This document shows positions 30,160-55,714 of a stretch of 64,000 nt of DNA, one piece after another. Each line of letters begins with the position of its first letter. The stretch's first letter is position 1. A model generated the notes under the pieces. It did not search any database, was not told where the DNA came from, and was given only the letters and a program-made list of their open reading frames with translations. A program made the translations under genes and the position numbers. This stretch comes from an uncultured Clostridium sp. (GTDB lineage Bacteria; Bacillota; Clostridia; TANB77; CAG-508): the NCBI GenBank assembly GCA_948473335.1, contig CAOKXF010000001.1, forward strand, positions 137,379-201,378. The letters are read 5' to 3'.

Positions 30160-30500
30160 GAAGACAAGAGAGATGATGATATAAAAAAATAAAAAACAAA
30201 AAAAGCACCTTGTTTACTAATAGGCGCATATCCGCGCCCATTAGTAAAACAGTTGATATAAGCGGAAAATAAAGAAAAGTAAGAGAAGAAGGAGATGATG
30301 ATATAAAAAAATAAAAAATAAAAAAGCACCTTGTTTGCTAATAGGCGCATATCCGCGCCCATTAGTAAAACAGTTGGTATAAGCGGAAAAATAAAAAAAG
30401 AAAGAAAAAAAGATGATGATGTAAAAAATAAACAAGAGAGTATCTTGTTTACAAATAGGTGCATATCTGCGATAAGATAATTAGTAAAACATCTAAATAT
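30160..30500. repeat. Tandem array of three ~120-bp units (the third degenerate), each carrying one copy of the dispersed ~45-bp palindromic element
   Basis: The period is marked by gatgatgatataaaaaaat at 30172, 30292 and 30411. The embedded palindromes are at 30209-30252, 30330-30373 and 30444-30490. Confidence 0.85.
30209..30252. repeat. Dispersed palindromic element, copy 1 (cttgtttactaataGGCGCatatccGCGCCcattagtaaaacag)
   Basis: Imperfect ~16-bp outer arms around a GC-rich inner stem. The same element recurs at 30330, 30444, 42846 (opposite orientation) and 55671. Confidence 0.85.
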
Positions 30501-30930
30501 ATTAAAAAAGAGTAATAGAAATTAAAGAAAAGGAGGAATATATCTAATTCAATAAGCAATACATTGCTAAAGAAATAGAATCATAGTACTTATGAAATTA
30601 AAAATAATAGATAAACAAATATTAGACATTTATGAAAATGAAAACAAACAAAAGTTATTCAAAGCAAGTGATTTTCAAAAAATTATGGAATTAAGAACAA
30701 GATTTAGTGATTTTATAAGACGAAAGGGAATTAATTTAATAGAAGAAAAAGACTATTACAAGGTAAAAGCAGAAGAATCTTCTAATAAAAAGCAATTTAA
30801 AAACAAATTCGAATATTACATAACACAAGAAACAGTACAAAGAATATGTTTTGTAAGTAAGAACAAAATATGTCAAAAAATACAAGAAGAGGCATTAAAA
30901 AATAAAGAAAAAAACTTTTTGGAGATATTA

Positions 30931-32010
30931 ATGACGACGCTAAATAAAATAAAGCAAGAGGAAAGAATAGAAGAAATTATAGAAATAAATATGAATGATG
31001 AAGAATATCCAGAAAAATTAAAACAGATAAAAAATCCACCAAAAAAAATATACATAAAAGGAAATGTAGAACTTTTAAAACAAAATGGAATAGCAGTTGT
31101 AGGGTCAAGAACAACATCAAATTATGGAAGAAAAATGTGCAAAATATTTGTAAATAATTTAGTAGGCTATAATTTAAATATAATAAGTGGTCTAGCAACA
31201 GGGATGGATTCACTAGCGCATAGGACTTGTATAGAAGCACAGGGAAAAACAATAGCTGTTTTACCATGCGGATTAAAGCACATTTATCCAAAAAGTAATG
31301 AAATATTATATAATAGAATACTTGAAGAAGGAGGACTTATAGTAAGTGAATATGAACTTAATGAAAAAGAAAGTTCAGATCATTTTAGAGAAAGAAATAG
31401 AATAGTAGCAGGATTATCAATAGGAACATTAGTAGTAGAATCACATAGAAAAAGTGGAACAAGTATTACAGTGCGAAATACAGAAGAACAAAACAAAAAG
31501 TCATTTTGTATACCGAGTAGTTTAGAAAACACAAAAGGAGCTGGAAATAATGAAATGATAAGGGATAAGAGAGCAAAGTTGGTAATTACAGTAGAAGATA
31601 TAATAGAAGAGTATACAGAATTGAAATTAAAAAAGAGAGAAGATTTTGAGTTCTTAGATATAAGCAATTTAAAAAATAAAATGAAATTAACAATAGAAAA
31701 TGAAGGTATAAATATAAGTAAAAGTATGGATATAAGCAAAGACCTAAGTAAAAACAAAAGTAAAGATATACATAAAAACATAAACAAAGAGATAGGTGAA
31801 AAAATAGATGAAGATATAGGTAAAGGCATAAGTAAAGAAAATATAGAAATTTATAATGCAATAATAGAAGGAGCAGAAACAATAGATGAAATAGCAAGAA
31901 AGACTAATAAAGACAGTAAAGAAGTAGCATGCAAATTAACAATATTAGAATTAGAAAATGCAATAGAAGCATTACCAGGAAAAAGATTTAAAATTAAAAA
32001 GCAAAAATAA
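30931..32010 (+). CDS. dprA: DNA-processing protein A (DprA/Smf), without the N-terminal SAM domain. It carries a K/I/S-rich low-complexity insert before the C-terminal winged-helix domain
   Basis: Rossmann-fold core GIAVVGSRTTSNYGRK...GLATGMDSLAH...RNRIVAGLS. C-terminal WH domain (IYNAIIEGAETIDEIARKT...LTILELENAIEAL). The start is set at MTTLNK (ATG 30931) because GGAGA lies 5 nt upstream. The same frame stays open back to ATG 30592, which has no SD. Confidence 0.7.
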   Translation: MTTLNKIKQEERIEEIIEINMNDEEYPEKLKQIKNPPKKIYIKGNVELLKQNGIAVVGSRTTSNYGRKMCKIFVNNLVGYNLNIISGLATGMDSLAHRTCIEAQGKTIAVLPCGLKHIYPKSNEILYNRILEEGGLIVSEYELNEKESSDHFRERNRIVAGLSIGTLVVESHRKSGTSITVRNTEEQNKKSFCIPSSLENTKGAGNNEMIRDKRAKLVITVEDIIEEYTELKLKKREDFEFLDISNLKNKMKLTIENEGINISKSMDISKDLSKNKSKDIHKNINKEIGEKIDEDIGKGISKENIEIYNAIIEGAETIDEIARKTNKDSKEVACKLTILELENAIEALPGKRFKIKKQK

Positions 32011-32143
32011 AATCATATAAGAAGTAAAGGTAGACAATAAGAAAGTAAAATATAATTTATTTTCACTTCAAGTTGCGTAATTCAAAGTGCCATAGGGTTT
32101 CCTATACAATAAAAATAATAAAAATGAGAAGGGAATGAAAAAA

Positions 32144-32497
32144 ATGAATAGAAATCAAGAAATAGGAAAAATAGGAGAAGATTTAGCAGAAAAGTATCTA
32201 AAAAACAAAGAATATAAAATTATACAGAGAAATTATAGATGTAGACAAGGAGAAATGGACATAATAGCAAAAGACAAAGAAGAAATAGTATTTATTGAAG
32301 TAAAAACAAGAACGACAATAAATTTTGGTAGACCATCAGAAGCAGTAAACTACATAAAAAGAGAACATTTACAAAATATAGCAAGATATTATTTATACAC
32401 AAATAAGATAACTAAAACGCAAATACGATTCGATGTAGTAGAAATATATCTATGGCCAAAGGGACATTCAGTAAACCATATAAAACAAATAATATAA
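32144..32497 (+). CDS. yraN: YraN-family (UPF0102) endonuclease
   Basis: GEDLAEKYLKNKEYKIIQRNYR...GEMDIIA...VFIEVKTR is a PD-(D/E)XK-type YraN signature. Confidence 0.75.
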   Translation: MNRNQEIGKIGEDLAEKYLKNKEYKIIQRNYRCRQGEMDIIAKDKEEIVFIEVKTRTTINFGRPSEAVNYIKREHLQNIARYYLYTNKITKTQIRFDVVEIYLWPKGHSVNHIKQII

Positions 32498-32663
32498 AAA
32501 TGTAAGAAATAATAAAATTTTAATTAAGGAAAATATTTAGAAGATTAATTAAAAAAGTAAATACTGCATTGAGCAAAATTTTAGAATAAAGTAAAAACTT
32601 GATATTTACATATTAATTTGATAAAATGACAATATTAATAAAGAAAAATAGAAAGAGGAAAAA

Positions 32664-33521
32664 ATGTCAAGTATATTAGAAGAAACAAAATACATAATGA
32701 AAAAATACAATATAAAAGCAAATAAAAATTTAGGACAAAATTTTTTAATAAGTGAAGAAGTGGTAGAAAAAATAGTAGAAAGTGCAGATATAAAAAAAGA
32801 CGAATTAATAATAGAGATAGGACCAGGACTAGGAACACTCACAAAACATTTATTAGAAAAATCAGGAAAGGTAATATGCATAGAAATAGACCCAAAAATG
32901 ATAAAAATTCTAGAAGACAGATTTGCATTATACACAAATTTTGAAATAATCAATGAAGATGTATTAAAAGTAAATTTACAAGAAATTATTAAAAAAGAAA
33001 AAAGGACTTGTAAAATAGTAGCAAACTTGCCATACTATATAACAACCCCAATAATAATGAAATTGTTAGAAAACAAGCTAGAAATAGAAAGTATAACTGT
33101 AATGATACAAAAAGAAGTAGCAGATAGATTAATAGCAAAACCAGGAGAAAAAGAAACAGGAGCAATAACATATTCAGTATATTATTATTGCAATTCAGAG
33201 AAAATATTAGAAGTACCAAATTATTCATTTATACCTGAACCAGAAGTAACATCAGAAGTAATAAAATTAAAATTAAGAAAAGAAATTCCAATAAAAGTAA
33301 AAAATATAGAAAAGATGTTTAAAATAATAAAAAATGCATTTATGCAAAGGAGAAAGACGCTAATAAACGCACTTGTAAATACACAAATAATAAAAAACAA
33401 AGAAGAAGCAAATGAAATATTTGAAAAATTAAATATAAGTACAAAAGTAAGAGCAGAAGAATTAACATTACAGCAATTTGCAGATATATCAGATAATATT
33501 GAGATAGGAGGAAAAATATGA
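32664..33521 (+). CDS. rsmA: 16S rRNA (adenine1518-N6/adenine1519-N6)-dimethyltransferase
   Basis: GQNFL motif, SAM-binding EIGPGLGTLT and NLPYYITTPII. Confidence 0.9.
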   Translation: MSSILEETKYIMKKYNIKANKNLGQNFLISEEVVEKIVESADIKKDELIIEIGPGLGTLTKHLLEKSGKVICIEIDPKMIKILEDRFALYTNFEIINEDVLKVNLQEIIKKEKRTCKIVANLPYYITTPIIMKLLENKLEIESITVMIQKEVADRLIAKPGEKETGAITYSVYYYCNSEKILEVPNYSFIPEPEVTSEVIKLKLRKEIPIKVKNIEKMFKIIKNAFMQRRKTLINALVNTQIIKNKEEANEIFEKLNISTKVRAEELTLQQFADISDNIEIGGKI

Positions 33522-34498
33522 AAATAGTATTTATGGGAACACCAGATTTTGCAAAAGAATCTTTACAAGCAATATATGAAGCAGAACATGAAATATTAGC
33601 AGTAGTAACAAATGAAGACAAGCCAAGCGGAAGAGGAATGAAGCTAACAAAAAGTCCTGTAAAAGAATATGCCCAACAAAAAAATATAAAGATATATCAA
33701 CCAAAAAAAATAAGAAACAATGAAGAATTTATAAATGAAATCAAAAAAATGAAACCAGAAGTAATATGTGTAGTGGCATATGGTAAAATATTACCCAAAG
33801 AGATATTAGAAATACCAGAAAAAGGATGCATTAATGTACATGCATCATTACTACCAAAATATAGAGGAGCAGCTCCAATACAAAGAGCAATAATAAATGG
33901 AGAGAAATATACAGGAGTAACAACAATGTATATGGACGTAGGAATGGATACAGGAGACATGATATTAAAAAAAGAGGAAAATATAGGAGAAGAAGAAACA
34001 ACAGGAGAGTTATGGAATAGATTATCAAAGATAGGAGCAGAACTGTTAGTAGAAACATTAGAAAAAGTAAAAGAAGGAACAGCACCAAGGACACCACAAG
34101 GAGAGGACTATACGATGGCACCAATGTTAAATAAGGAAACAGATGGAATAATAGACTGGGAAACTAAAGTAGCTGAAGAAATAAGAAATCAAGTAAGAGG
34201 ATTAAATCCAATAATGGGAGCAATTACATACTTAGAAGGAAAGAAGATAAAATTCTGGAAGGTAAAAGTGGCAACAGAAGAAGAATTAGAAAAAATAATA
34301 GAAGAAGAAAAAATAGAAAATAAAGAAAATGGAACAATTATTATAGCAGATAGTAAAAAAGGATTATATATAAAAACAAAAAAAGGTGTAGTAAAAGTAT
34401 TAGAAATACAAGGAGAAAATTCAAGAAGAATGGCAATAGAAGACTATTTGAGAGGAAACAAAATAGAAGTTGGTAAAATATTTAAAAAACAGTTGTAA
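33518..34498 (+). CDS. fmt: Methionyl-tRNA formyltransferase
   Basis: MKIVFMGTPDFA N-terminus, the HASLLPKYRGAAPIQRAI formyltransferase motif and the C-terminal domain. Confidence 0.9.
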   Translation: MKIVFMGTPDFAKESLQAIYEAEHEILAVVTNEDKPSGRGMKLTKSPVKEYAQQKNIKIYQPKKIRNNEEFINEIKKMKPEVICVVAYGKILPKEILEIPEKGCINVHASLLPKYRGAAPIQRAIINGEKYTGVTTMYMDVGMDTGDMILKKEENIGEEETTGELWNRLSKIGAELLVETLEKVKEGTAPRTPQGEDYTMAPMLNKETDGIIDWETKVAEEIRNQVRGLNPIMGAITYLEGKKIKFWKVKVATEEELEKIIEEEKIENKENGTIIIADSKKGLYIKTKKGVVKVLEIQGENSRRMAIEDYLRGNKIEVGKIFKKQL

Positions 34499-34588
34499 AA
34501 ATAATAAAAAATTGATATACTAATGGCAAATCAAAAAAGATATAAAAAAATAGGACAAGATTTGTCCAAAAAGAAAGGATGATTTAAT

Positions 34589-35023
34589 ATGGAAGAAAAC
34601 AAAATTGAAGAAATAAAAGAGGAAATAGTAAAAGAAGAAACATTAGGAGAAAATACAGGAATAAAAATATCAGATGAAGTAATAGCAGTAATAGCAGGAG
34701 TAGCAGTATCAGAAGTAAATGGAGTAGCTGGAATGCAAGGAAAATTTGGAGGAGGAATAGGAGAAGTATTAAGTGGTAAAAAGAATTTAGCAAAAGGAAT
34801 AAAAGTAGAAACAATAAATGAACAAGCAAAAATAGATGTAAACATAATAGTAGAATATGGAGCAAGAATACCAGATGTAGCATTTGAAATACAAAACAGA
34901 GTAAAGAAAGCAGTAGAAGGAATGGCAGGATTAAAAGTATCAGAAGTAAATGTACATGTGCAAGGAGTAAATATAGAATCAGATAGTAAAGAGCAAACAG
35001 AACAAAAAGGAACAGCAGAATAA
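34589..35023 (+). CDS. asp23: Asp23/Gls24-family envelope stress protein
   Basis: The ISDEVIAVIAGVAVSEVNGVAG pattern is typical of Asp23. Confidence 0.8.
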   Translation: MEENKIEEIKEEIVKEETLGENTGIKISDEVIAVIAGVAVSEVNGVAGMQGKFGGGIGEVLSGKKNLAKGIKVETINEQAKIDVNIIVEYGARIPDVAFEIQNRVKKAVEGMAGLKVSEVNVHVQGVNIESDSKEQTEQKGTAE

Positions 35024-35066
35024 TAAAAACAAAAGACATAAAAATTTTATATAGGAAACATTCAAA

Positions 35067-35096
35067 CCTCAGCAAAATCCAAGTTTTTTGCTGAGG
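35067..35096 (+). terminator. Intrinsic terminator after asp23
   Basis: cctcagcaaaa/ttttgctgagg stem with an internal T-run. Confidence 0.6.
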
Positions 35097-35135
35097 AAAG
35101 ATTGTATGCATTAGGAAAAGGAAGGAAAAAGAAAG

Positions 35136-35693
35136 ATGAAAATAATAGAAAGAATAGTATTAGTAGTATATTCATATATAATTTTAGTATTAGCTACATT
35201 TTTTAGTTTAATAATATTAGGATTAATAGATGCAAGCCTAGTGCAAACCATAATAGAAAAGATACTACAAGAAGACATATTATCAAAGGTAATATTAGGA
35301 CTAAATGCAGTATTTATATTATTATCAATAAGATGTATATTTTTTGACACGAGAGATAAAAAATCAGAGAAAGAAAAGCAAGGAATATTACTAAAAAATG
35401 AAAATGGTAAATTACTAATATCAAAAGAAACAATAGAAAATTTAACAAATTCAGTAATAAAAGAATTTGAAAGTATAGAGCAAATAAGTACAAAAACAAC
35501 GATAGATAAAGAAAATAATTTAATAATAGTTGTAAATTTAACAGTAGGACCAAAAGTAATAATAAAAGAACTTTCAGTAAATCTACAAAATAAAATAATA
35601 GAAACAGTAAAAAACACATTAGATTTAGAGGTAAAAGAAGTAAATATAAGAGTTAAAAGCTATGTAGCAAAAACTGAGGAAAATAAAGGATAA
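35136..35693 (+). CDS. amaP: Alkaline-shock-response membrane anchor protein AmaP-like
   Basis: N-terminal double TM segment plus soluble domain. Conserved asp23-amaP-DUF2273 gene order. Confidence 0.6.
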   Translation: MKIIERIVLVVYSYIILVLATFFSLIILGLIDASLVQTIIEKILQEDILSKVILGLNAVFILLSIRCIFFDTRDKKSEKEKQGILLKNENGKLLISKETIENLTNSVIKEFESIEQISTKTTIDKENNLIIVVNLTVGPKVIIKELSVNLQNKIIETVKNTLDLEVKEVNIRVKSYVAKTEENKG

Positions 35694-35733
35694 TATTGAA
35701 AAGTTTCAAAGAACCAAAAGAAAGGATAAAAAG

Positions 35734-35928
35734 ATGGGAGATTTTTGGAGACAATATAAAGGAGCTATAATAGGAGTGCTTGTAGCAATATTAGTTTTAT
35801 GTACAAGATTATATAGTCTTATTTTAGGAGTAGTATTAATAATAATAGGAGCATTTTTAGGAAACTATGTACAACAAAACAAAGAAGAAGTAAAAGATAG
35901 AATAAAAAAATTTATTGATAAAATGTAG
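35734..35928 (+). CDS. DUF2273-family small membrane protein
   Basis: 64-aa, two-TM protein (GAIIGVLVAILVL...LGVVLIIIGAFLG) that follows amaP. Confidence 0.6.
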   Translation: MGDFWRQYKGAIIGVLVAILVLCTRLYSLILGVVLIIIGAFLGNYVQQNKEEVKDRIKKFIDKM

Positions 35929-35986
35929 AATAAGATATAAAACATATATAATAAAAAATAAAAAAAGGGACAAGAAAGGAAAGAAT

Positions 35987-36391
35987 ATGAATAGATCAGC
36001 AATTAGAGAATTAACATTCAGACTAATATATAGCCAAGAAATACAAAAAAGTGAAGACATAGATGAACAAATAGAACTATATTTAGAAGCAAATGAAATA
36101 ACAGATGAAAGTGCAATAGAATATATAAAAGATGTTGTAAAAGGAATAAAAAATAATCAAGAAGAAATTGAAAAAAAGATACAAAAAAATCTAAAAGCTG
36201 ATTGGAAAATAGAAAGAATATCAAAAGTAGATTTAAGTCTATTAAAATTAGCAATATATGAAATAAAATATAAAGAAATACCATATAAAATAATAATAAA
36301 TGAAGTTGTAGAATTATCAAAACAATATGGAGAAGAGCAATCAAAAAATTTTGTTAATGGAATATTAGCAAGTATAGTAAAAGAAGGATAA
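35987..36391 (+). CDS. nusB: Transcription antitermination factor NusB
   Basis: MNRSAIRELTFRLIYSQE... is the NusB fold signature. Start set at MNRS after an AAGGAAAGAA SD. The listed longer ORF begins inside an AT-rich spacer. Confidence 0.85.
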   Translation: MNRSAIRELTFRLIYSQEIQKSEDIDEQIELYLEANEITDESAIEYIKDVVKGIKNNQEEIEKKIQKNLKADWKIERISKVDLSLLKLAIYEIKYKEIPYKIIINEVVELSKQYGEEQSKNFVNGILASIVKEG

Positions 36392-36396
36392 AATAT

Positions 36397-37587
36397 ATGA
36401 AATATCAAGCAATATCTGTATCAGAGTTAAATGCATATATAAAGGGAAAAATATCAGAAGATGAAGCACTACAAAGTGTATTAGTAAAAGGCGAAATATC
36501 AAATTTCAAAAACCATTACGCAACAGGACATCTTTATTTTACATTAAAGGATGAAAAATCCTTAATAAAATGTATAATGTTTAAAGGCTATGCAGAAAAA
36601 CTAGACTTTATACCAAAAGATGGAATGAGTGTAATGGTTTTTGGTAGTGTTTCAGTATATGAGAGAGATGGAGTATACCAAATATATGTACAAGCGATGC
36701 AAGAAGATGGATTAGGAAGTCTATATAAAGCATATGAAGAATTAAAAAGTAAATTAGAAAAAGAGGGATTGTTTAGAGAAGAACATAAAAAGAAGATACC
36801 AACATATCCCAAAGAAATCGGAGTATTAACATCAGAAACAGGAGCAGTAATAAGAGATATTATTAATGTATCAACAAGAAGAAATCCAAATGTACACATA
36901 AAGTTATTGCCAGTACCAGTTCAAGGACTAGGAGCAAGTGAAAAAATAGCAGAAGCAATTGAAATAATGAACAGGAATAACCTAGTAGATGTAATAATTT
37001 TAGCAAGAGGAGGAGGCTCATTAGAAGATTTATGGCCATTTAATGAAGAAGAAGTGGCACGAGCAATATATAATTCAGGCATACCAATAATATCAGCAGT
37101 AGGACATGAAACAGACTTTAGTATATCAGATTTTGTAGCAGATTTAAGAGCACCAACACCTTCAGCAGCAGCTGAATTAGCAGTACCAGATATATCAGAA
37201 TTAAAAGCTATAATAAATACATATGAAACAAGATTTAAGAATTCTTTAATTAGAAAAATAGAATTAATGAAAATGAGATATAGTAAAAGCATGCAATCAA
37301 GAGCTTTTAAGGAGCCTATGAGAATCATAAATGATAATTATATAAAAATAGATAGTTTAATAAAAAATATGGAAAATTTTATAAATAAAAAACAATTTGA
37401 AGCTAAATCAAAATTTATAGAATTAACAACAAAGCTAGATAGTTTAAGTCCCCTAAAAACTTTAACAAGAGGGTATTCTTTAATAGAAATAAATGGAAAG
37501 ATTGTAAAAAGTCAAAAAGAAATAAAAACTGATGACGAAATAGAATTAAAGTTTTATGATGGAACTAAAAAAGCAAAAGTAATATAA
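36397..37587 (+). CDS. xseA: Exodeoxyribonuclease VII large subunit
   Basis: OB-fold N-terminus (VSELNAYIKGKI...VLVKGEISNFK...HLYFTLKD) and the catalytic/C-terminal regions. Confidence 0.9.
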   Translation: MKYQAISVSELNAYIKGKISEDEALQSVLVKGEISNFKNHYATGHLYFTLKDEKSLIKCIMFKGYAEKLDFIPKDGMSVMVFGSVSVYERDGVYQIYVQAMQEDGLGSLYKAYEELKSKLEKEGLFREEHKKKIPTYPKEIGVLTSETGAVIRDIINVSTRRNPNVHIKLLPVPVQGLGASEKIAEAIEIMNRNNLVDVIILARGGGSLEDLWPFNEEEVARAIYNSGIPIISAVGHETDFSISDFVADLRAPTPSAAAELAVPDISELKAIINTYETRFKNSLIRKIELMKMRYSKSMQSRAFKEPMRIINDNYIKIDSLIKNMENFINKKQFEAKSKFIELTTKLDSLSPLKTLTRGYSLIEINGKIVKSQKEIKTDDEIELKFYDGTKKAKVI

Positions 37588-37614
37588 CAACAATAATACA
37601 AAGGAGTGATGCAT

Positions 37615-38127
37615 ATGAAAAAAAATAAAAAAGCAATTATGTTAATAGTAGTAATTGCGGTTATACTAATAGTAATAGTATGTATAGCATATTACAAAAA
37701 TAAACAAGCTATAGAAACAAATACACCAAAGGACAATAATACAACACATCCAGAAGAAATAGATAAAGACAATGATAATGAAAATAATCAAAATAATGTA
37801 AATGATTTAGAAACAGATAAAAATGAAACAGACAATAATACAGATGTAGAAAATAGTAATCAGTCAAATAAAAATGATAGTACAACAAATAAAGAAGAGA
37901 ATACATCAAAAAATGAAATAAAAGAAAATGAAAATAAAAATAACACAGAAGATAAAGCAATAAATGCAGTAAAGAATAAAATTGGAGGAAGTAATAGTGC
38001 AAAATATTCAATAGATTATAATGCAAATCTACCAGCAAATCAGTTAATGGTCAAGGTAACTGAAGATGCAGTGACATTAGGATGGTATATTGTAAATACA
38101 GAAACATGGGAAGTAACAGAGTTTTAA
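37615..38127 (+). CDS. Membrane-anchored protein with an N/D/E/T/K-rich low-complexity region, inserted between xseA and xseB. Function unknown
   Basis: AAGGAG SD 8 nt before ATG (MKKNKK). Single N-terminal TM segment, about 100 aa of low-complexity sequence, then a short conserved-looking C-terminal domain. Confidence 0.45.
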   Translation: MKKNKKAIMLIVVIAVILIVIVCIAYYKNKQAIETNTPKDNNTTHPEEIDKDNDNENNQNNVNDLETDKNETDNNTDVENSNQSNKNDSTTNKEENTSKNEIKENENKNNTEDKAINAVKNKIGGSNSAKYSIDYNANLPANQLMVKVTEDAVTLGWYIVNTETWEVTEF

Positions 38128-42733: not shown

Positions 42734-42845
42734 GAATTTAATCATATTACACTTATATTAGCTATTTACTCGTATTATATATTATTAGTAGAGTAGACCA
42801 ATTAAAGATATATATATTATTTTTTAGAGAAGTACTTATTAACAT

Positions 42846-42878
42846 ATGGGCGCAGATATGCGCCTATTAGTAAACAAG
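42846..42878. repeat. Dispersed palindromic element, copy 4 (opposite orientation, right arm diverged)
   Basis: tatgGGCGCagatatGCGCCtattagtaaacaag is the reverse complement of cttgtttactaataggcgcatatctgcgccc. Confidence 0.75.
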
Positions 42879-43012
42879 TATTTTTTTGCATAATGCACTC
42901 AATAATAGTTAAATTACATGTTTTCTAATATGCAAAAAATAACAATAAAAAATAATAAAAAAGTATTGCAAATAACAAGTTTTATTGTTATCATAGAATA
43001 AGAGAATACTAT

Positions 43013-48720: not shown

Positions 48721-48886
48721 GTTAACAAATACATTTTAAGAATATATTGTATTAAAAGATATGATTTTCAATAGTGTGTATAATCATTTCTTAAAAATTG
48801 ACTATAATTAAAAAATATAGCAAAAAAGCGGACTTTAAATTATCAAATGTCCGTTTTTGAGGTTTATAAATGGAGGAATTGAAAAA

Positions 48887-49483
48887 ATGAATCTACCAAA
48901 TAAATTAACAATGTTTAGAATAATATTAGTACCAATAATGGTTATAATACCATTTTTAAACACACAAGGAACGCTTTTTAATATACCATATGAATATATA
49001 ATAATAAATATAATTTTTATAATAGCATCAATAACAGATCAATTAGATGGTCATATAGCACGTTCAAAAAATCAGATAACAACATTTGGGAAATTTGCAG
49101 ATCCCTTAGCTGATAAAATATTGGTATTAGCAGCTATGATGATACTAGTAGAATATAATAAATTGCCAGCTTGGATTCCTATATTAATATTAGCTAGAGA
49201 ATTTATTGTATCAGGATATAGACTAGTGGCAGTAGAGCAAGGTGGAAAAGTAATTGCCGCTTCTATCTGGGGTAAATTAAAAACAGTTACTCAAATGATA
49301 GCTATAATAATAGCATTTATCGATATTAATGCTTTTGGAGCTTGCTTTTCTGGAGAATTAACAGGATTACAACTTATTATTAATATTGCGCAAACATTAA
49401 TGATGATTATATGTGTAATTGCTACTGTTTTTTCTGGTTATGATTATTTAAAGAGTGGAAAGGAATTATTTAAATTAAAGTAA
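48887..49483 (+). CDS. pgsA: CDP-diacylglycerol--glycerol-3-phosphate 3-phosphatidyltransferase
   Basis: CDP-alcohol phosphatidyltransferase motif DQLDGHIAR...GKFADPLADKIL. Start set at MNLPNK after a GGAGGA SD. Confidence 0.85.
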   Translation: MNLPNKLTMFRIILVPIMVIIPFLNTQGTLFNIPYEYIIINIIFIIASITDQLDGHIARSKNQITTFGKFADPLADKILVLAAMMILVEYNKLPAWIPILILAREFIVSGYRLVAVEQGGKVIAASIWGKLKTVTQMIAIIIAFIDINAFGACFSGELTGLQLIINIAQTLMMIICVIATVFSGYDYLKSGKELFKLK

Positions 49484-49510
49484 AGAAGTATAATATTATA
49501 TGCATATAGC

Positions 49511-49569
49511 AAAATTCAACTTTTATCAAAAAATGTATTTACTACATTTTTTGATAAAAGTTGAATTTT
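49511..49569. terminator. Perfect 27-bp-arm palindrome (5-nt loop), a bidirectional terminator between the convergent pgsA and sigK genes
   Basis: aaaattcaacttttatcaaaaaatgta (49511-49537) is exactly the reverse complement of 49543-49569. A/T runs flank it on both strands. Confidence 0.75.
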
Positions 49570-49585
49570 TGTTATGATTATATAA

Positions 49586-50287
49586 TTATTCTTTTATTTC
49601 TTTTGCTAATTTTCCAATAGCTTTAGTCTCAATTCTAGAAACATAGGAACGAGAAATACCAATCATATCCGCAATTTCATTTTGAGTCTTTGGTTTATGA
49701 CCATAGAGTCCAAAACGTAATTCTATAATAGTTCTTTCTCTATCTTTAAGAACAGTCTTAATTTTTTCATATAATTTCTTAGTTTTCATCTTCAAATCAA
49801 TAACATCCTCAACACTACGATCATCATTCTCAAGAACTTCTTGCAATGTAACAACATTATCATCTTTATCTTTTCCTATAGGTTCATTCAAAAAAACTTC
49901 TGCACCTAATTTTTTAGTTGCTCTAAGGTACATTAAAATTTCATTATCGATACATCTAGAAATATATGTAGAAAGTCTAGAACCTTTATCTATGTTAAAA
50001 CTATTTATTCCTTTAATTAATCCTATTGTTCCGATAGAAATCAAATCATCTTGATCTACATTTGAATTAGAATATTTCTTTGCAACATGAGCAACAAGTC
50101 TCAAATTTCTCTCAATTAATATATTCCTTGCTTCATCATCTCCAGCCTTTAGTTTTTCTAGATAAATTTTTTCATCTTCTGCATTTAAAGGTTCTAAAAA
50201 CAAGCTATTTCCTGAAATATATCCAACTGCAAATATAGCTGTTTTTATAAAGCCAAAAAAACCTGCTATGCTTAATGACGCTAACAT
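49586..50287 (-). CDS. sigK: Sporulation sigma factor pro-sigma-K. Pro-sigma-E is a less likely alternative
   Basis: Hydrophobic N-terminal pro-sequence. Region 2 RNLRLVAHVAKKY and region 4.2 GISRSYVSRIE match SigK better than SigE. The gene is stand-alone and not in a spoIIGA-sigE-sigG cluster. Start set at MLASLS after a GGAGGTG SD. Confidence 0.6.
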   Translation of the reverse strand: MLASLSIAGFFGFIKTAIFAVGYISGNSLFLEPLNAEDEKIYLEKLKAGDDEARNILIERNLRLVAHVAKKYSNSNVDQDDLISIGTIGLIKGINSFNIDKGSRLSTYISRCIDNEILMYLRATKKLGAEVFLNEPIGKDKDDNVVTLQEVLENDDRSVEDVIDLKMKTKKLYEKIKTVLKDRERTIIELRFGLYGHKPKTQNEIADMIGISRSYVSRIETKAIGKLAKEIKE

Positions 50288-50518
50288 AAATGCACCTCCA
50301 AATTCACACTCATACATTAATTATATGAATTGTAATTTTAAAAGTGCCTGACCCCAAAAATATTTTAGAATATTTATATTTTAGTAAAAATGAAATAGGT
50401 GAGAAACAGTAAAACGAGTAAAGATATAATATAAGAAAAAACTACCAAATATAAATATTGCAATTTAAAGTGAAATATAGTAAAATAGAAATGAAGAAAA
50501 AGAAAAGGGGAAATAACA

Positions 50519-51673
50519 ATGGAAGAAGAAAAAAAAGTAACTACAGATAAAAAAATAAGAACAAATAAAAATAGAAGAACAAAAATGAATAACCAAATGA
50601 AAAAGAAAGCAATAATATTAACAACAGCAACGACAATGCTAATATTAATAATTGCGATAATAATAGGAGTAGTATCAAGGATAACAAACCAAACATCTAC
50701 AAATGTAGGAAAACAAAATAATGATATTTCTCAAAATGATGAAAACAATACACAAATAGGAAATCCAGAAGAAAAGGACAAGCCAGAAGAACAAGAAAAC
50801 AATAATCCAGAAGAAGGAAAGAATCCTACAGAAGAGCAACCACAACAACCAAATCAAAGTGCGGAGACAACAGAACCACAAGAAAAGAAAACTGGTAAAG
50901 AGAAATATTACATAAAAGTAAATAACCAAGCAAATGTAGTAACAATATATAAAAAAGATGCTGATGGATATTATACAATACCATGTAAAGCAATGGTATG
51001 CTCAATAGGAACTGCAACACCAGAAAGTGGAGTATATAAAACATCAGATAAATATACATGGAGAAAACTATTCGGGCATACAGAAGGAACATATGTATAT
51101 GGACAATACGCAACAAGAATAGTAAAAAGTATATTATTCCATTCAGTACCATACCAAAATCCAAATGACCCATCATCATTAGAATATTGGGAATATGATA
51201 AGCTAGGGACAAAGGCATCAGCAGGTTGCATAAGATTAACGGTACAAGATGCAAAATGGATATATGATAACTGTGCAAAAGGAACACAAGTCGAATTTTA
51301 TTCAAGTGCAGATCCAGGACCATTAGGAAAACCAACAGCACAGAAAATATCAAATGAAGCAAGTTATGTAAGAGGTTGGGACCCAACAGACCCAAGCGGA
51401 AGTAACCCATGGAAAACATATACAGGAAATCAACAAAATGAGCAACAACCAACAATCATAGACAATGGTAATACAAATCAAAGTAATAATAATTTAAATG
51501 GAAATAATAATACAACAGAAAGTGAAAATCCCACGAATCCAAGTGGAGGAGGAAGTGAAATAGTACAGCAACCAGACCAAACAACAATACCATCAGGAGG
51601 AAATGGAGAAAATGAACTGCCAGAAAATAAGGAAGATGATGTTATAACAACTCCAACAACAACTTCAGAATAA
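50519..51673 (+). CDS. L,D-transpeptidase (YkuD family) with an N-terminal TM anchor and low-complexity Q/P/E/N-rich linkers
   Basis: Catalytic core HTEGTYVYGQYATR...SAGCIRL carries the His/Cys motif of LDTs. Confidence 0.75.
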   Translation: MEEEKKVTTDKKIRTNKNRRTKMNNQMKKKAIILTTATTMLILIIAIIIGVVSRITNQTSTNVGKQNNDISQNDENNTQIGNPEEKDKPEEQENNNPEEGKNPTEEQPQQPNQSAETTEPQEKKTGKEKYYIKVNNQANVVTIYKKDADGYYTIPCKAMVCSIGTATPESGVYKTSDKYTWRKLFGHTEGTYVYGQYATRIVKSILFHSVPYQNPNDPSSLEYWEYDKLGTKASAGCIRLTVQDAKWIYDNCAKGTQVEFYSSADPGPLGKPTAQKISNEASYVRGWDPTDPSGSNPWKTYTGNQQNEQQPTIIDNGNTNQSNNNLNGNNNTTESENPTNPSGGGSEIVQQPDQTTIPSGGNGENELPENKEDDVITTPTTTSE

Positions 51674-51700
51674 AACAAACAAGGAGAAATCTGTAATAAA

Positions 51701-52960
51701 ATGGAAGAAAAAGAGATTGCAAATAAAATAAAAGCAGCAGGAGGAGAATTATATTTAGTAGGAGGAGCTGTAAGAGACAGTATAATAGATAAGCCCAATT
51801 ATGATAAAGATTATTGCGTTGTAGGAATAACAGCTGAAAAATTCAAGAAACTTTTTCCAAACAGTTATACAAGAGGAAAAAGTTTTGAAGTATTTGATAT
51901 AGATGGAAAAGAATTTGCAATGGCACGAACGGAAACAAAAATAGGTAGTGGTCATAAAGAATTTAAAATAAAAACAGGAAAAGATATAACAATAATAGAT
52001 GATTTAGCACGAAGAGATATAACAATAAATTCAATAGCACAAAATGTATTGACACAAGAAATGATAGATCCATTTAATGGAATTCAAGATATAAAAAATA
52101 AAATAATAAAAGCAACAACGCAAGCATTTAAAGAAGATCCATTAAGAGTATATAGAGTAGCTAGATTTGCAGCAATATTAAATTTTAGAGTAGAAGAAAA
52201 TACAATAGAATTGATGAGACAATTAAAACCAGAATTAATGTTTTTATCAAAAGAAAGAGTTTTTGTAGAATTTGCTAAGGCATTGAAATCAGAAAAACCA
52301 TCAATATTTTTTGATGTATTAAAAGAAGCTAATGTACTTGAAGTACATTTTAAAGAAGTAAAAAATTTAATCGGAGCATTACAACCAGAAAAATTTCATC
52401 CAGAAGGGGATGCGTATATTCACACAATGATGGTATTAGATTATGTAGCAAAACAAACAAATAAATTAGAAATAAGATATTCAGCATTAGTACATGATTT
52501 GGGAAAGGGGATAACACCAAAAGAAGAATATCCTCATCATTATAATCACGAAATAAATGGAGTGGAAGTAGTAAAACAATTTTCTAATAGAATAGGAGTA
52601 CCTACAATATGGGAGAAATGTGGTAAGACAGCTTGTAGAGAACATATGAGAGGAGGAATATTCCATAAAATGAAACCTTCTAAGAAGGTAGACTTTATAG
52701 AACGAGTATCAAAATCACAATTAGGATTAGAAGGATTACAAAGAGTAGTGAATTCTGATAGATTAAGCTCAAAAAATATAGATGAAGGAAGAATAGACTT
52801 TAAAGATATTGGAGAGAAATGTTTATATGAAATTAATGGAAAATATATACAGGATAAATTTAATATAAAACAGGGAATTGAATTTGGAAATAAGTTGCGA
52901 GAAGAAAGAATAAAATGGATGAAAGACAATAGTGAGAATAAAATAGATAAAAGAAAATAG
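51701..52960 (+). CDS. cca: CCA-adding tRNA nucleotidyltransferase (PolyA_pol head plus HD domain)
   Basis: GGAVRD nucleotidyltransferase motif and the RRDITIN and HD-domain (HDLGK) motifs. Confidence 0.8.
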   Translation: MEEKEIANKIKAAGGELYLVGGAVRDSIIDKPNYDKDYCVVGITAEKFKKLFPNSYTRGKSFEVFDIDGKEFAMARTETKIGSGHKEFKIKTGKDITIIDDLARRDITINSIAQNVLTQEMIDPFNGIQDIKNKIIKATTQAFKEDPLRVYRVARFAAILNFRVEENTIELMRQLKPELMFLSKERVFVEFAKALKSEKPSIFFDVLKEANVLEVHFKEVKNLIGALQPEKFHPEGDAYIHTMMVLDYVAKQTNKLEIRYSALVHDLGKGITPKEEYPHHYNHEINGVEVVKQFSNRIGVPTIWEKCGKTACREHMRGGIFHKMKPSKKVDFIERVSKSQLGLEGLQRVVNSDRLSSKNIDEGRIDFKDIGEKCLYEINGKYIQDKFNIKQGIEFGNKLREERIKWMKDNSENKIDKRK

Positions 52961-52964
52961 TGAT

Positions 52965-53017
52965 AATAAAAGTGGACATTTGCGAAAATAGATATTTTGT
53001 AAGTGCCCACTTTTATT
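52965..53017. terminator. Bidirectional terminator between cca and the convergent U32 peptidase gene
   Basis: aaaagtgg...ccacttttatt stem with an internal bulge. Confidence 0.55.
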
Positions 53018-53021
53018 AAAT

Positions 53022-55440
53022 TTATATAGTTCTATTTATATTTCCATTAGTATAATGTTTACCCTCAAATCTATTACCAGATAAAACAATTTTAATAATA
53101 TCATTTATTTCAGAAATGGATTCATCTAAAATATCTATTCTTGCAAAGTCACAAGTGATAGTATTAGTTGAAATAGAAGTAGTTTTACTATTATAAATTG
53201 TAGTAACAGTATCAATATTATCAGGAATAAATCTAAAAGAAATACCAAATCTATCTTTCAAAAAGTATTTATTTCCTAAAAGACATTTTTTACTACAAGA
53301 TTTGTAGCATTTATTACTATTTCCAAGAAGGCAATAATTGCAAGTCATAATTGGAATATTACCATAAAATATGAATTCTGATAATTTATTAGGAACTCTG
53401 ATATTTAATAATTCATTCTGAGCAAGTTCAGGAGAAAGAGTAACAGTTGAGACTTCCAAATTTTTAGCAGTTTCATTATTGTACAAATTCATAGTATAGT
53501 TACTAATTAAATCATAAGATTTATAGTCATCTAGCAGTTCAAATTGACCAATATTAGAAATAACAAAGCCTTTAATTTTAAAGTTACTTATTATATTATC
53601 AATATGTTTTTTAAATAAATTCAAATAGTTGTTTCTCATAACACAAGGCATGTAAATATATAAGTTTGCCTTTTTGGAAATAGTTTCTAGTGAAGTATGA
53701 TATTTATTATTTAGAAAATATTTTAAAGGCACATAAATTCTATCTATATCATTAGTAAGTAAAGAGTAATCAAATGAAGAGTGTATTACATTTAATAGTA
53801 AAGATATCTTCTTTGAAGACATGGTAGTTGATGAGATTTCGTCATATTTTGGAAATTTAAAGTCAAATTTTTTATCAAAGTGATTTTTAAATTTTGATAA
53901 AATAGTATTTTCATATTTATATAATATTTGCCTTCGAAGTTCATTTAATGCGCCAATACTAGGTAAATATAAGTTTTTTCCTAAATTTATATCTACTATA
54001 TCAAAAGAAAATGGAGTATTATTTGTTTTAGATAATTGCATTTCTATGCGTTCTTTAGTTATAGGAGCAGATATTGCTTTAATTGGGATAATATCAGAAA
54101 CAATAGAAACAGTATTTTCTAAATTATCTGATACTTTAATAGTAATAGGAGTATTTTCCTGTATGGAAATAGAACATTTTAGATACTTTTTACGTAATTC
54201 TTGTCCAGAGTATGTAGGTTTACATATGTCAGATAGTTGTTTACTAAAAATTTTATAAATCCTATCTCCAACTTTGATATTTCCTTTCATTCGACCAATC
54301 TTAACGGAAGAACCAGATTCAGCAATAGACAAATTCTGATTTTTTAACATTAATTCGGACACAGTATAAATTGCATCTTCTTCAGATGTAGATATTGAAA
54401 TTTTATCTCCAATTGCTAGGGAATCTTTTAAGTTCAGAGTAATATGTCCTTTATTACTATTGAAAGTAGTAACAGTTCCTATAAATATTCCGAATGTTGT
54501 TAGGTTTATCTTTGAAAATAAGGTTTCGATTTTCTTTACTAGAAAGATGACCATTAGTAAAATTTCCACGATTATATGCTTGCATTAAATCATGAATATC
54601 TCGTTTATCAATTTTAATTGAATCTTGTTGTATAGAAAAGTTATTATTAGCATTTAAAATGATATCAATATATTTTCGATAGGTTTTTGTAACAGTTGCA
54701 ACATAATCAGGTGTTTTCATCCTTCCTTCAATTTTTAAACAAGATACACCAGCTTCTATTAAATCTGGTAAATATTCTAATCCACATAAATCACGAGGAC
54801 TAAGTAAATATCCTTTATTTAATTCTTTGTTATTTTCTAGTAATGTATATGGGAGTCTACAAGGTTGTGCACAACGTCCTCGATTTCCAGAACGACCACC
54901 AACTATACTAGAAAATAGGCACTGACCAGAATATGAAATACATAATGCACCATGTATGAAACATTCAATTTCAATATTTGTATTTTTACAGATATTTTCT
55001 ATTTCTTCTATTGATAATTCACGTGAAAGTACAACTCTTTTAAAGCCTAGTTTTTCTAATTTTTTTACTCCTTCTAGATTATGTACTGACATTTGTGTAC
55101 TTGCATGAATTGCTAAATTTGGAAAGTTTTTAATAAGCAATGTTGCAAGACCTAAATCTTGTACTATTATTGCATCTATTCCAAATTCATATGCTTTTTT
55201 TGCCAATTCAAAGGCATCATTTAATTCATTATTTTTTATTAAAATGTTCAAAGTTAAATTGGTCTTTACTCCACGTAGTTTTGCATAGTTTATAGCCAAT
55301 TCTAAATTTTCTAAATCAAAATTTTTAGCAGATGCTCTTGCACTAAACATATTTGCTCCAAAATATACACTATCTGCTCCATTTTGAACTGCAGCCTTTA
55401 GACATTCAAAATCACCGACTGGTGCTAATAATTCTATCAT
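53022..55440 (-). pseudogene. U32-family peptidase (collagenase-like/PrtC-like, with C-terminal DUF3656 domain) interrupted by a frameshift near 54490-54501
   Basis: Two overlapping minus-strand ORFs in different frames: 54457-55440 is the U32 catalytic N-terminal part and 53022-54569 is the C-terminal part. Together they match a single ~800-aa U32 protein. The frame switch falls within aaacctaacaacattcggaatattt, reading KPNN|FGIFIG. Confidence 0.5.
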
Positions 55441-55670
55441 ATTTTAAAAACTCCTTAGTCTGTGTAGCAAAAGCGAAACTTTTCTACACATTTGTGCATC
55501 GAAATTTTGATTTTGCAGATGCACACTTTTCTTATATGATTGAATTATACAATAAAATTATGTAAATAGCAATAAATAGATTTTATTTTTACAATTGCAT
55601 AAAGTAGTATTATGAGATTTTTATAGTTTTAAAGATATCATTAAGTATATGTGTTCTTTTTAAAGTGTGT

Positions 55671-55714
55671 CTAGTTTAATAATAGGTGCATATCTGCGCT
55701 TATTAGTAAACTAG
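55671..55714. repeat. Dispersed palindromic element, copy 5 (ctagtttaataataGGTGCatatctGCGCttattagtaaactag)
   Basis: Same architecture and core as the copies at 30209, 30330 and 42846. It lies in the spacer between the divergent U32 and rsgA genes. Confidence 0.8.

What the first reader, a model, noticed from the sequence alone, without database searches (positions are those of the whole stretch)
30209..55714. Family of ~45-bp palindromic intergenic elements with a GC-rich core (five or more copies in 64 kb)
The consensus is cTTGTTTACTAATAGGCGCATATCyGCGCCCATTAGTAAAACAG. Imperfect 14-16-bp A/T-rich outer arms flank a GGCGC-N6-GCGCC inner stem. Copies are at 30209-30252, 30330-30373, 30444-30490 (degenerate), 42846-42878 (inverted, one arm eroded) and 55671-55714, where the outer arms have co-varied to ctagtttaataa/ttattagtaaactag and preserve the pairing. 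All copies are intergenic. Compensatory changes in the arms indicate selection for structure. The GC-rich core is striking in an extremely AT-rich genome. This looks like a REP/BOX/RUP-like repeat family, and it may be mobilised in trans by a RAYT or IS200/IS605-type transposase, or used as a protein-binding or terminator module. I do not recognise it as a described element
Basis: seen in the sequence. Interest (0 to 1): 0.6.

Follow-up and report, generated by a model that had tools for sequence, protein, structure and literature searches.

The report
Genome-specific palindromic intergenic repeat family
A real family of about 45-bp hairpin-forming repeats sits between housekeeping genes of an uncultured, very AT-rich Clostridia bacterium; it behaves like the REP/MITE-type "junk" palindromes known from other bacteria, and only one or two copies look usable as transcription terminators.

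Summary
A covariance model finds exactly five copies in the window (E ≤ 1.5e-11) and nothing else comparable. All are intergenic. None matches Rfam, the plasmid or the phage collections.

- The palindrome is the core of a longer oriented unit of 113-121 nt.
- Copies 1-3 are a head-to-tail array between comM and dprA.
- Further copies lie outside the window: upstream of a sortase gene in a JGI contig, and a decayed copy about 350 nt before the window start.
- Sister species carry hairpins at the same three intergenic positions (comM-dprA, tkt-ftsE, U32-rsgA), but with a different sequence in each genome.
- Copies within one genome resemble each other more than copies at the same position in other species, so the family evolves in concert.
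- Pairing is kept through many two-sided changes.
- G·T and A·C mismatches are equally frequent, so no RNA strand is favoured.
- The rsgA copy lies between two conserved divergent promoters.
- The tkt copy's loop is inverted between strains.

These points favour a DNA-level REP/MITE-like repeat. Copy 4 alone in the window is a plausible terminator. No transposase was found, and genome-wide copy number could not be measured.

The parts
30184..30304 (+). Array unit 1: A-rich left flank, GCACC, hairpin 30209-30252 (GGCGC-ATATCC-GCGCC core, AT-rich 9-12-bp outer arms), then the purine-rich tail ending GGAGATGATGATATAA
   Evidence: family D2; period 121, 2.7 copies, 85% matches; 93.9 bits; folding z -5 to -6
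30305..30425 (+). Array unit 2, with hairpin 30330-30373. It is 86% identical to unit 1 over 121 nt
   Evidence: 91.8 bits. Short-read contigs from four samples end inside this hairpin
30426..30540 (+). Array unit 3, degenerate. Hairpin remnant 30444-30490 with a 5-nt insertion and a broken core. The tail ends in an orphan SD-like AAAGGAGG at about 30530, roughly 55 nt before the dprA ATG at 30592
   Evidence: 63.8 bits; z -0.39, no longer a stable hairpin
42830..42887 (-). Copy 4, the hairpin alone in the opposite orientation. On the + strand it reads as an interrupted stem of about 21 bp followed directly by TTTTTTT (42881-42887). It starts about 97 nt after the tkt C-subunit stop (42733) and lies upstream of the ftsE promoter region. 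Probable intrinsic terminator of tkt
   Evidence: -22.9 kcal/mol, z -4.35; 71.8 bits on the - strand. Present in all strains, with the loop AGATAT or ATATCT inverted between strains
55671..55766 (+). Copy 5: hairpin 55671-55714 (19 bp with 1 mismatch and 2 G·U pairs on the + strand) plus a homologous purine-rich tail. It lies between the conserved divergent promoter regions of the U32 peptidase operon (-) and rsgA (+)
   Evidence: D2, 61% over 121 nt; 82.6 bits; promoter-like sites at 55572-55544 on - and 55835-55863 on +. One search shows both flanks conserved and the centre replaced in the sister species. Identical in four other samples

Best explanation
This is a genome-specific family of REP/MITE-like non-coding palindromic repeats that exists and turns over at the DNA level.

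Shown:
- Each unit is a hairpin-forming palindrome of about 45 bp (GC-rich core, AT-rich arms). In full copies it carries an oriented flank of about 60-70 nt.
- Units sit only in intergenic 'safe' sites.
- They form head-to-tail arrays whose unit number differs between strains.
- The sequence differs between genomes while the positions are shared.
- The pairing covaries.
- There is no RNA-strand bias in the mismatches.
- The loop of copy 4 is inverted between strains.

Inferred:
- The palindrome forms hairpins or cruciforms in vivo. This explains the loop inversion and keeps the arms complementary.
- All copies in one genome are kept alike by re-seeding from a master copy, by a trans-acting enzyme, or by gene conversion. 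Which of these operates is unknown.
- Array size changes by unequal recombination or slippage.
- Orientation is filtered by selection. The orientation that places a T-run after the hairpin is tolerated only at the 3' end of a transcription unit, where it can serve as an intrinsic terminator (copy 4 after tkt, and the decayed copy after the helicase gene just upstream of the window). The opposite orientation, with no T-run, is tolerated between co-directional genes and upstream of gene starts.
For: - Real and dispersed. There are five copies at three loci in the window. A hairpin 100% identical to copy 1, with 87% identity over about 130 nt, lies upstream of a sortase gene on an unrelated JGI contig. 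A decayed copy in the reverse orientation lies about 350 nt upstream of the window start.
- Both orientations occur, and all copies are intergenic.
- Positions are shared between species while the sequence is genome-specific. comM-dprA arrays occur in L131 (4 units), L136 (2 units, GCAGTGAGCGGGAATTCCCGCTCACTG) and L138/L139 (3 to at least 4 units of about 86 nt). A tkt-ftsE hairpin occurs in L152. A U32-rsgA tandem pair occurs in L155. Copies within one genome are 0.72-0.82 identical, against 0.2-0.6 for copies at the same position in other species.
- At U32-rsgA the promoter flanks align between species, but the central segment holding the hairpins is replaced.
- Covariation: 77.6% of cells are paired, 13 of 20 pairs show two-sided changes, and 0 of 500 shuffles reach the observed score. 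Slid controls give 32-47% paired.
- G·T versus A·C mismatches number 22 versus 25, so neither strand is preferred as RNA.
- Copy 5 lies between two conserved divergent promoters and is probably not transcribed.
- The loop of copy 4 is inverted between otherwise near-identical strains.
- Array unit number varies: 3 versus 4, and 2 versus at least 3. Assemblies break at the arrays.
- Copy 4 is a strong hairpin followed by T7 downstream of tkt on the same strand.
Against: - No transposase of any kind was found in the 64-kb window or in any fetched flank, so a mobilising enzyme is pure inference.
- No terminal inverted repeats beyond the palindrome, no target-site duplication and no empty site were found.
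- Copies 4, 5 and the copy upstream of the window are present in every strain sampled, so there is no evidence of recent movement.
- Arrays are direct repeats, unlike BIMEs and REPINs.
- Positions conserved across species, and a conserved orientation relative to dprA and rsgA, could also mean a host function.
- Genome-wide copy number is unknown. The 17-mer core was absent from 185,579 species-representative genomes and occurred in only one JGI metagenome contig.
Confidence: 0.5

Rival explanations
1. The primary function is at the RNA level on the gene strand. The hairpin plus its purine-rich, SD-like tail would act as a 5'-UTR or intercistronic mRNA stabiliser or processing signal for dprA, rsgA, sortase and ftsE. 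This would resemble REP hairpins protecting upstream mRNA in E. coli, or 5' stem-loop and STAB-SD stabilisers in Bacillus. Copies in the reverse orientation would act as terminators.
For: - The same orientation relative to the downstream gene is found at comM-dprA in four or five lineages, at U32-rsgA in two species, and upstream of sortase.
- Tails end in SD-like GGAG or AAAGGAGG. In L120 the tail supplies the SD and ATG of the sortase gene.
- The hairpins are stable as RNA.
- Copy 4 and the L125 copy have T-runs and sit at the 3' ends of genes.
Against: - Mismatch types show no strand preference: 22 G·T versus 25 A·C.
- Copy 5 lies between the two conserved divergent promoters, outside either predicted transcript.
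- The distance from the hairpin to the conserved GTATAAG/TATAGG motif and to the start codons varies widely, from 4 to 30 nt and from 50 to 220 nt.
- The served genes are functionally unrelated.
- Tandem multiplicity is unexplained.
- Decayed copies persist (copy 3, L131 u2 and u4).
Confidence: 0.2
2. The copies are binding sites on double-stranded DNA for a lineage-specific dimeric protein that co-evolves with its site. Candidates are a regulator, a nucleoid or segregation factor, or a recombination or uptake factor.
For: - The palindrome is symmetric, with symmetric mismatch types.
- Copies lie in promoter-upstream or non-transcribed spacers.
- All copies in a genome share one 'dialect', while the same positions in sister species carry another.
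- The array sits between the two transformation genes comM and dprA and bounds a swapped dprA allele.
Against: - An interrupted palindrome of 44 bp with a 4-6-nt centre is much longer than known operators.
- The central loop can invert without loss of the copy.
- Copies decay at several loci.
- Density is low, and there are no copies in coding sequence.
- No candidate cognate protein has been identified.
Confidence: 0.15
3. The units are small RNA genes on the strand opposite to the flanking genes. Each would be a CU-rich anti-SD body (…CUCCUUCUUCUC…) ending in the hairpin plus a U-run, arranged in tandem like the Listeria LhrC1-4 sRNAs.
For: - On that strand the hairpins of copies 1, 2 and L120 are more stable (-25.1 vs -19.5 to -19.6 for copy 1 and L120; -21.4 to -24.5 vs -19.5 to -21.7 for copy 2). 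They are followed by GGTGCTTTTTTT.
- The CU-rich segment is conserved between dispersed copies.
Against: - No promoter-like site occurs on that strand in the array, in L120 or in L125.
- In L120 the 'body' overlaps the start of the sortase gene.
- The T-richness of that strand matches the genome-wide strand composition (AT skew +0.3).
- The extra stability comes from one inherited A·C/G·U position.
- Copy 5 has no U-run and folds worse on that strand.
- There is no Rfam match.
Confidence: 0.05
4. The pattern is a local duplication or a chance resemblance between ordinary terminator hairpins, with no family at all.
For: - Three of the five copies are one tandem duplication.
- This genome's ordinary terminators are also long AT-rich hairpins.
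Against: - Copies 4, 5, L120 and L125 are at unrelated loci and share a core of 18-35 nt expected 0.01 times by chance.
- The model separates them from all other hairpins by more than 40 bits.
Confidence: 0.03

Closest known systems
REP/BIME elements and REPIN-RAYT systems (E. coli, Pseudomonas; PMC2817692, PMC3116915, PMC5581495)
   Same: Both are short imperfect extragenic palindromes. Both occur singly and in clusters. Both have a species-specific consensus that persists at intergenic sites across related species. Both have occasional terminator or mRNA roles. Group 1 RAYTs are reported in Clostridia (PMC5581495).
   Different: Clusters here are direct head-to-tail units of 113-121 nt, not alternating or inverted doublets. 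The unit carries a long oriented flank. No RAYT was seen. No GTAG-type 5' motif is present. Copy number is unknown and looks modest, at roughly one locus per 20 kb in the DNA seen.
Firmicute and Neisseria MITE-like repeats: RUP, BOX and SPRITE (S. pneumoniae), Correia/NEMIS (Neisseria), ERIC (own knowledge)
   Same: All are intergenic elements of about 100-150 nt that fold into a long hairpin. They are found in both orientations. They can carry terminator or promoter-like functions, and they can be co-transcribed with neighbouring genes.
   Different: Those elements have defined terminal inverted repeats and target duplications (TA for Correia and RUP) and show insertion polymorphism between strains. 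None of these features could be shown here.
Intrinsic (Rho-independent) terminators
   Same: Copy 4 and the L125 copy are stable stems followed by a T-run, downstream of a gene on the same strand.
   Different: Copies 1-3, 5 and L120 lack a T-run on the gene strand. They lie between co-directional genes, or between divergent promoters where nothing needs terminating.
Uptake sequence 'dialects' (DUS of Neisseriaceae, USS of Pasteurellaceae; own knowledge)
   Same: The sequence is genome-specific and shared by all copies, with different dialects in sister species. The motif is often arranged as an inverted pair forming a hairpin. There is proximity to the transformation genes comM and dprA.
   Different: DUS and USS are 10-12-mers at about 1 per kb and are also common inside genes. 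Here there are 5 copies in 64 kb, all intergenic. No uptake specificity is known in Firmicutes.
Chromosomal integron attC arrays such as VCRs (own knowledge)
   Same: Both are imperfect palindromes of about 120 nt, species-specific and repeated.
   Different: There is no GTTRRRY/RYYYAAC boundary motif. The flanking genes are core housekeeping genes rather than cassettes. No integrase is present.

Membership tests
REP / BIME / REPIN-RAYT | Short imperfect palindromes confined to extragenic space | tested here: met
   The palindrome is 44-46 nt. All 5 window copies and all copies in related loci are intergenic.
REP / BIME / REPIN-RAYT | High copy number (typically >100 per genome; PMC2817692) | not testable with these tools
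   Only about 76 kb of this species could be read, giving 4 loci and 6 hairpins. The 17/18-mer core was found in none of the 185,579 species-representative genomes and in one JGI contig.
REP / BIME / REPIN-RAYT | Clusters with REPs in alternating or inverted orientation (BIME or REPIN doublet) | tested here: not met
   Arrays are direct head-to-tail repeats with periods of 121, 113, about 115, about 86 and about 85 nt.
REP / BIME / REPIN-RAYT | A cognate single-copy RAYT (Y1 HUH transposase) flanked by the repeats | not testable with these tools
   No Y1_Tnp or other transposase was found in the window or in the Pfam lists of any fetched flank.
REP / BIME / REPIN-RAYT | Conserved GTAG-type tetranucleotide 5' of the stem (own knowledge; PMC3479197 for the REP-RAYT complex) | tested here: not met
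   The bases 5' of the stem are GCACC, GTATC, GTGTC, AATAC or ATAGC (alignments A3 and A6).
MITE (RUP / Correia type) | Terminal inverted repeats at the ends of the unit, and a target-site duplication | tested here: inconclusive
   The only inverted repeat is the central palindrome. Unit ends are A-rich and of low complexity. No empty site was available to define ends or duplications.
MITE (RUP / Correia type) | Presence/absence polymorphism between strains | tested here: not met
   Copy 4 is present in all 9 strains compared, copy 5 in 4 of 4 further samples, and the L125 copy in 6 of 6. Only the number of units in the arrays varies.
Intrinsic terminator | Stable stem-loop followed immediately by a U/T-run, downstream of a gene on the same strand | tested here: inconclusive
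   Met for copy 4 and the L125 copy. Not met for copies 1-3 and 5. The simple scanner called none of them, because the stems are interrupted.
Any Rfam RNA family | Match to a curated covariance model | tested here: not met
   There was no hit at gathering thresholds. Only chance hits appeared at E 4-5.
CRISPR array | Identical repeats separated by unique spacers | tested here: not met
   The segments between hairpins are themselves repeated, with 85-86% identity between units.
DNA uptake sequences (DUS/USS) | Very high density (about 1 per kb), including within coding regions | tested here: not met
   There are 5 sites in 64 kb, and none is in coding sequence.
Integron attC | R''/R' boundary motifs (RYYYAAC ... 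GTTRRRY) at cassette ends, with an integrase nearby | tested here: not met
   The sequence after the stem is GTTGATA or GTTGGTA, which does not fit GTTRRRY. The neighbours are core genes and there is no integrase.

The most novel reading that the evidence does not exclude
The palindrome may be a recognition sequence that co-evolves with a trans-acting protein, giving a genome-specific 'dialect' at fixed intergenic positions. Its most conserved site is the array between the transformation genes comM and dprA. That array bounds a dprA allele 77% identical in protein inside an otherwise 98% identical genome. If so, the element would mark DNA for uptake or recombination (DUS/USS-like), or for a domesticated HUH enzyme. 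That would be the first such system in Firmicutes.
Probability: 0.05. Interest if true: 0.8.

Novelty: new member of a known kind. Interest (0 to 1): 0.35.

Why it matters
Repeated extragenic palindromes are well studied in Proteobacteria and a few pathogens. They are hardly described in uncultured gut or rumen-type Clostridia.

This case shows cleanly that the intergenic positions are shared among sister species while the sequence is homogenised within each genome. It also shows arrays that vary in unit number and a loop that flips between strains. That makes it a compact system for asking how dispersed palindromes are kept alike: by a transposase, by gene conversion, or by hairpin-templated repair.

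There is a practical point as well. These repeats break short-read assemblies at comM-dprA and U32-rsgA in several public metagenomes. If the element turned out to be tied to transformation or recombination, the interest would be much higher.

Tried and rejected
- **Genome scan.** An exact-pattern scan of 185,579 species-representative genomes gave 84 hits. All were single chance matches in unrelated, mostly GC-rich organisms with no flank similarity. This used the only genome-contig scan.
- **Metagenome scan.** Thirty of the 31 loci were chance matches. They include a high-GC repeat on the MWW* contigs that shares the 18-mer by accident. Only L120 is genuine.
- **Other collections.** The viral contig scan gave nothing. 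The 121-nt unit had no match in the plasmid or phage collections.
- **Rfam.** There was no hit at gathering or permissive thresholds.
- **Promoter idea.** I considered the palindrome as an operator next to an extended -10 (TGATATAAG, 4 nt after the stem in copy 1). I rejected it because the hairpin-to-motif distance is not conserved (about 4 nt in the window against about 19-30 nt in L131 and L136) and the scanner finds no promoters there.
- **Antisense sRNA idea.** Rejected for lack of promoters. The T-richness of that strand is also simply the genome's strand composition.
- **Leader-peptide attenuator idea.** The mini-ORFs MMI* and MKKQKIAY* are not conserved between units or lineages.
- **attC, CRISPR, parS/dif and iteron readings.** The defining motifs are absent.
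- **Weaker model hits in the window** (21114, 49520, 62798, 45913). These are ordinary, unrelated terminator hairpins.
- **Walking out to the rest of the genome.** This failed because look-ups are limited to window proteins or their homologues, and the 333-kb source contig was never returned.

Full report
**1. Is it there?**

Yes. The sequences at 30209-30252, 30330-30373, 30444-30490, 42846-42878 and 55671-55714 are as described. The core GGYGCNNATNYGCGC with at most one mismatch occurs only at these five sites, against 0.01 expected from shuffles. I built a covariance model from the copies. With filters off it scores the five at 64-94 bits (E 2e-18 to 1.5e-11). The next hit scores 24 bits. 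That hit and the other weak intergenic hits are ordinary long AT-rich terminator hairpins with no sequence relation.

Copies 1, 2, 4 and 5 fold far better than shuffled controls as RNA or as DNA, on either strand. Copy 3 no longer forms the hairpin (z -0.39). All copies lie between genes:
- comM/yifB-like and dprA for copies 1-3;
- the transketolase C subunit and ftsE for copy 4;
- the U32 peptidase and rsgA for copy 5.

The window has 27% G+C and a strong purine excess on the + strand. It comes from an uncultured spore-forming Clostridia MAG.

**2. Anatomy beyond the first description**

Copies 1-3 are a head-to-tail array with a 121-nt period, 2.7 units and 85% matches. The repeated unit is oriented. 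It has an A-rich stretch, GCACC, the hairpin, GTTGAWATAAGYGGAAAAATAAA, and a purine-rich tail ending in an SD-like GGAG. Copy 5 shares the tail. Copy 4 is the hairpin alone in the opposite orientation.

On the + strand, copy 4 is an interrupted stem of about 21 bp (-22.9 kcal/mol, z -4.35) followed directly by seven T. It lies about 100 nt downstream of tkt, so it looks like a working intrinsic terminator.

**3. Beyond the window**

The metagenome scan returned one genuine copy, L120. Its hairpin is 100% identical to copy 1, and identity is 87% over about 130 nt. It ends 51 nt upstream of a sortase gene, in the same orientation as that gene.

Contigs carrying exactly the window's proteins extend the region. 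They reveal a decayed copy about 350 nt upstream of the window start (L125 8018-8062). It is in the reverse orientation, has a pyrimidine-rich tail before it and TTTTTTATT after it, and lies downstream of a helicase/DUF2726 gene.

Several short-read assemblies end inside the hairpins. There is no match in Rfam, the plasmid or phage collections, or viral contigs.

**4. Comparative evidence**

The comM-dprA spacer carries a tandem hairpin array in every relative examined:
- four units of 113 nt in a second strain, L131, whose outer arms have co-varied to CTTATTAACTAAT/ATTAGTTAATAAG;
- two units with a different palindrome, GCAGTGAGCGGGAATTCCCGCTCACTG, in a sister species about 82% identical in DNA, L136;
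- three to at least four units of about 86 nt in a more distant relative, L138/L139;
- a contig break inside ...AATCCGCGCACTCTTG in L140.

A third species (L152, L155) has an L136-type hairpin, AAGTGAGCAAAAATTCTTGCTCACTT, in the tkt-ftsE spacer. It also has two or more tandem units, TTCTCCAGTAGACGCAAAGTTGCGTTCACTAGGAGAA, in the U32-rsgA spacer.

So the three intergenic positions are shared, but the sequence is specific to each genome. Copies within one genome are 0.72-0.82 identical, against 0.2-0.6 for copies at the same position in other species. In the U32-rsgA spacer both promoter-bearing flanks align between species. The central segment holding the hairpins does not align.

**5. Structure and strand**

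I aligned 17 hairpins from five lineages and scored a 20-pair stem. It is paired in 77.6% of cells. Thirteen pairs show two-sided changes, covering 35 cells. None of 500 shuffles reaches the observed score, and slid registers give 32-47% paired. Complementarity is therefore actively maintained.

The non-Watson-Crick cells are symmetric, with 22 G·T against 25 A·C. Neither strand behaves as the functional RNA. The greater stability of the reverse strand in copies 1, 2, 4 and L120 comes mostly from one inherited A·C/G·U position.

Copy 5 lies between the conserved U32 promoter region (TTGCTA-17-TATAAT on the minus strand) and the conserved rsgA promoter region (TTGAAA-17-TAAGAT). It is probably in untranscribed DNA.

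Across nine strains the copy-4 spacer is nearly identical. The exception is the six-base loop, which reads AGATAT in some strains and its reverse complement ATATCT in others. This is the signature of an inversion templated by the inverted repeat, and so of hairpin or cruciform behaviour at the DNA level. Two strains also carry changes at both members of one pair.

**6. Mechanism**

The best-supported reading is a REP/MITE-like selfish or neutral DNA palindrome family.
- It sits in permissive intergenic sites.
- It is homogenised within a genome by an unknown route: re-seeding by a trans-acting enzyme, gene conversion, or hairpin-templated repair.
- It expands and contracts in arrays. Unit numbers differ between strains: 3 versus 4, and 2 versus at least 3.
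- Its orientation is filtered by selection. The orientation with a T-run occurs only at the 3' ends of genes (copy 4 and the L125 copy), where it can terminate transcription. The orientation without a T-run occurs between co-directional genes and upstream of starts.

The steps shown are the family itself, its dispersal, concerted evolution, covariation, lack of strand bias, the loop flip and array variation. The steps inferred are the homogenising mechanism, the selective filter and actual termination.

I put this at about 0.5. Rivals:
- an RNA-level 5'-UTR or intercistronic stabiliser, 0.2;
- a site for a co-evolving DNA-binding protein, 0.15;
- antisense sRNA genes, 0.05;
- no family at all, 0.03.

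**7. Comparison with known systems**

It works like REP/BIME and the Firmicute or Neisseria MITE-like hairpin repeats, but membership is not established.
- Extragenic palindromes: met.
- Alternating or doublet arrangement: not met, because the arrays are direct.
- GTAG-type 5' motif: not met.
- RAYT and copy number: not testable here.
- MITE terminal repeats and target duplication: inconclusive.
- Strain insertion polymorphism: not seen.

No transposase or HUH protein occurs in the window or any fetched flank (and the Pfam lists). Group 1 RAYTs are reported in Clostridia (PMC5581495). REPs are defined by more than 100 copies and by alternating BIMEs (PMC2817692).

**8. Verdict**

This is a real, previously uncatalogued repeat family of a known kind. 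Interest is moderate, from the clean case of concerted evolution at conserved positions, the loop flip, and the association with a swapped dprA allele. The most novel reading not excluded is a co-evolving recognition 'dialect' linked to transformation or recombination. I rate that as unlikely, at about 0.05.

Noticed in passing
window 30490-32100 (dprA) versus L131 9800-11340: Two strains are 97.6-98.3% identical in DNA on both sides but only about 82% identical across the array plus dprA. DprA protein identity is 77%, and one allele has a 32-aa insert made of 24-nt repeats at 31732-31838. This looks like an allele replacement bounded on the left by the hairpin array. L131 unit 1 is a chimera of the two arm types.
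   Followed up: partly
window 42854-42859, and L142-L150: The six-base loop of copy 4 is inverted between strains (AGATAT versus ATATCT) in an otherwise near-identical spacer. Two strains (L142, L145) carry G>C and C>A changes at the two members of one stem pair.
   Followed up: partly
window 6247-6403: A second, unrelated tandem repeat (80 nt x 2, 87% identical) fills the grpE-dnaK spacer. Each unit holds two hairpins: AAGTTAGCTGTA...TACAGATAACTT and GGAAAAATG...CATTTTTCC. Tandem intercistronic hairpins may be a general habit of this genome.
   Followed up: no
window 49586-50317 (-), versus L152 12069-14872 and L154 6072-8883: A sigma-70-family gene is inverted in the window relative to two sister species. 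There it lies next to a ParE/Phd toxin-antitoxin pair and a large serine recombinase that the window lacks. This may be a recombinase-associated rearrangement near a sporulation-type sigma gene.
   Followed up: no
window 30530-30537; L131 about 9944-9951: A strong SD-like AAAGGAGG with no start codon after it lies about 55 nt upstream of the dprA ATG and is conserved between strains. It resembles a STAB-SD-type 5' stabiliser. The dprA ATG itself has no obvious SD.
   Followed up: no
window 26019-26097: A 13-nt AT-only tandem repeat (TTAAATAATATAT, about 6 copies) lies between a 186-aa ORF of unknown function and a TSCPD-domain gene.
   Followed up: no
window 28-2172 and L125 5661-10585: A PAPS-reductase/DUF3440 gene, a 130-aa ORF and a ParB_N-domain gene (an IbrA/IbrB-like pair) lie just downstream of a helicase/DUF2726 gene. 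That helicase gene is variably split between strains. The arrangement looks like a defence or mobile-element-related island.
   Followed up: no
window 49511-49569: A perfect 27-nt inverted repeat with an A-run before it and a T-run after it lies between convergent genes. It is a textbook bidirectional terminator and shows what ordinary terminators look like in this genome.
   Followed up: partly
L090, L093, L095, L096, L098, L107, L108, L110-L112 (MWW* metagenome contigs): An unrelated high-GC repeat (about 60% G+C), spaced about 1.4-1.8 kb apart on its contigs, happens to contain the same 18-mer AATAGGYGCATATCTGCG within CCTGGGCTTGTCAATAGG... It is a chance match to the query, but it is itself a repeated element.
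   Followed up: no
window 30592-32010: DprA here carries an N-terminal AntA/AntB antirepressor-like domain (residues 30-91, E 4e-5, below the Pfam cut-off) ahead of the DNA_processg_A domain. The feature is shared by most relatives in this clade.
   Followed up: no
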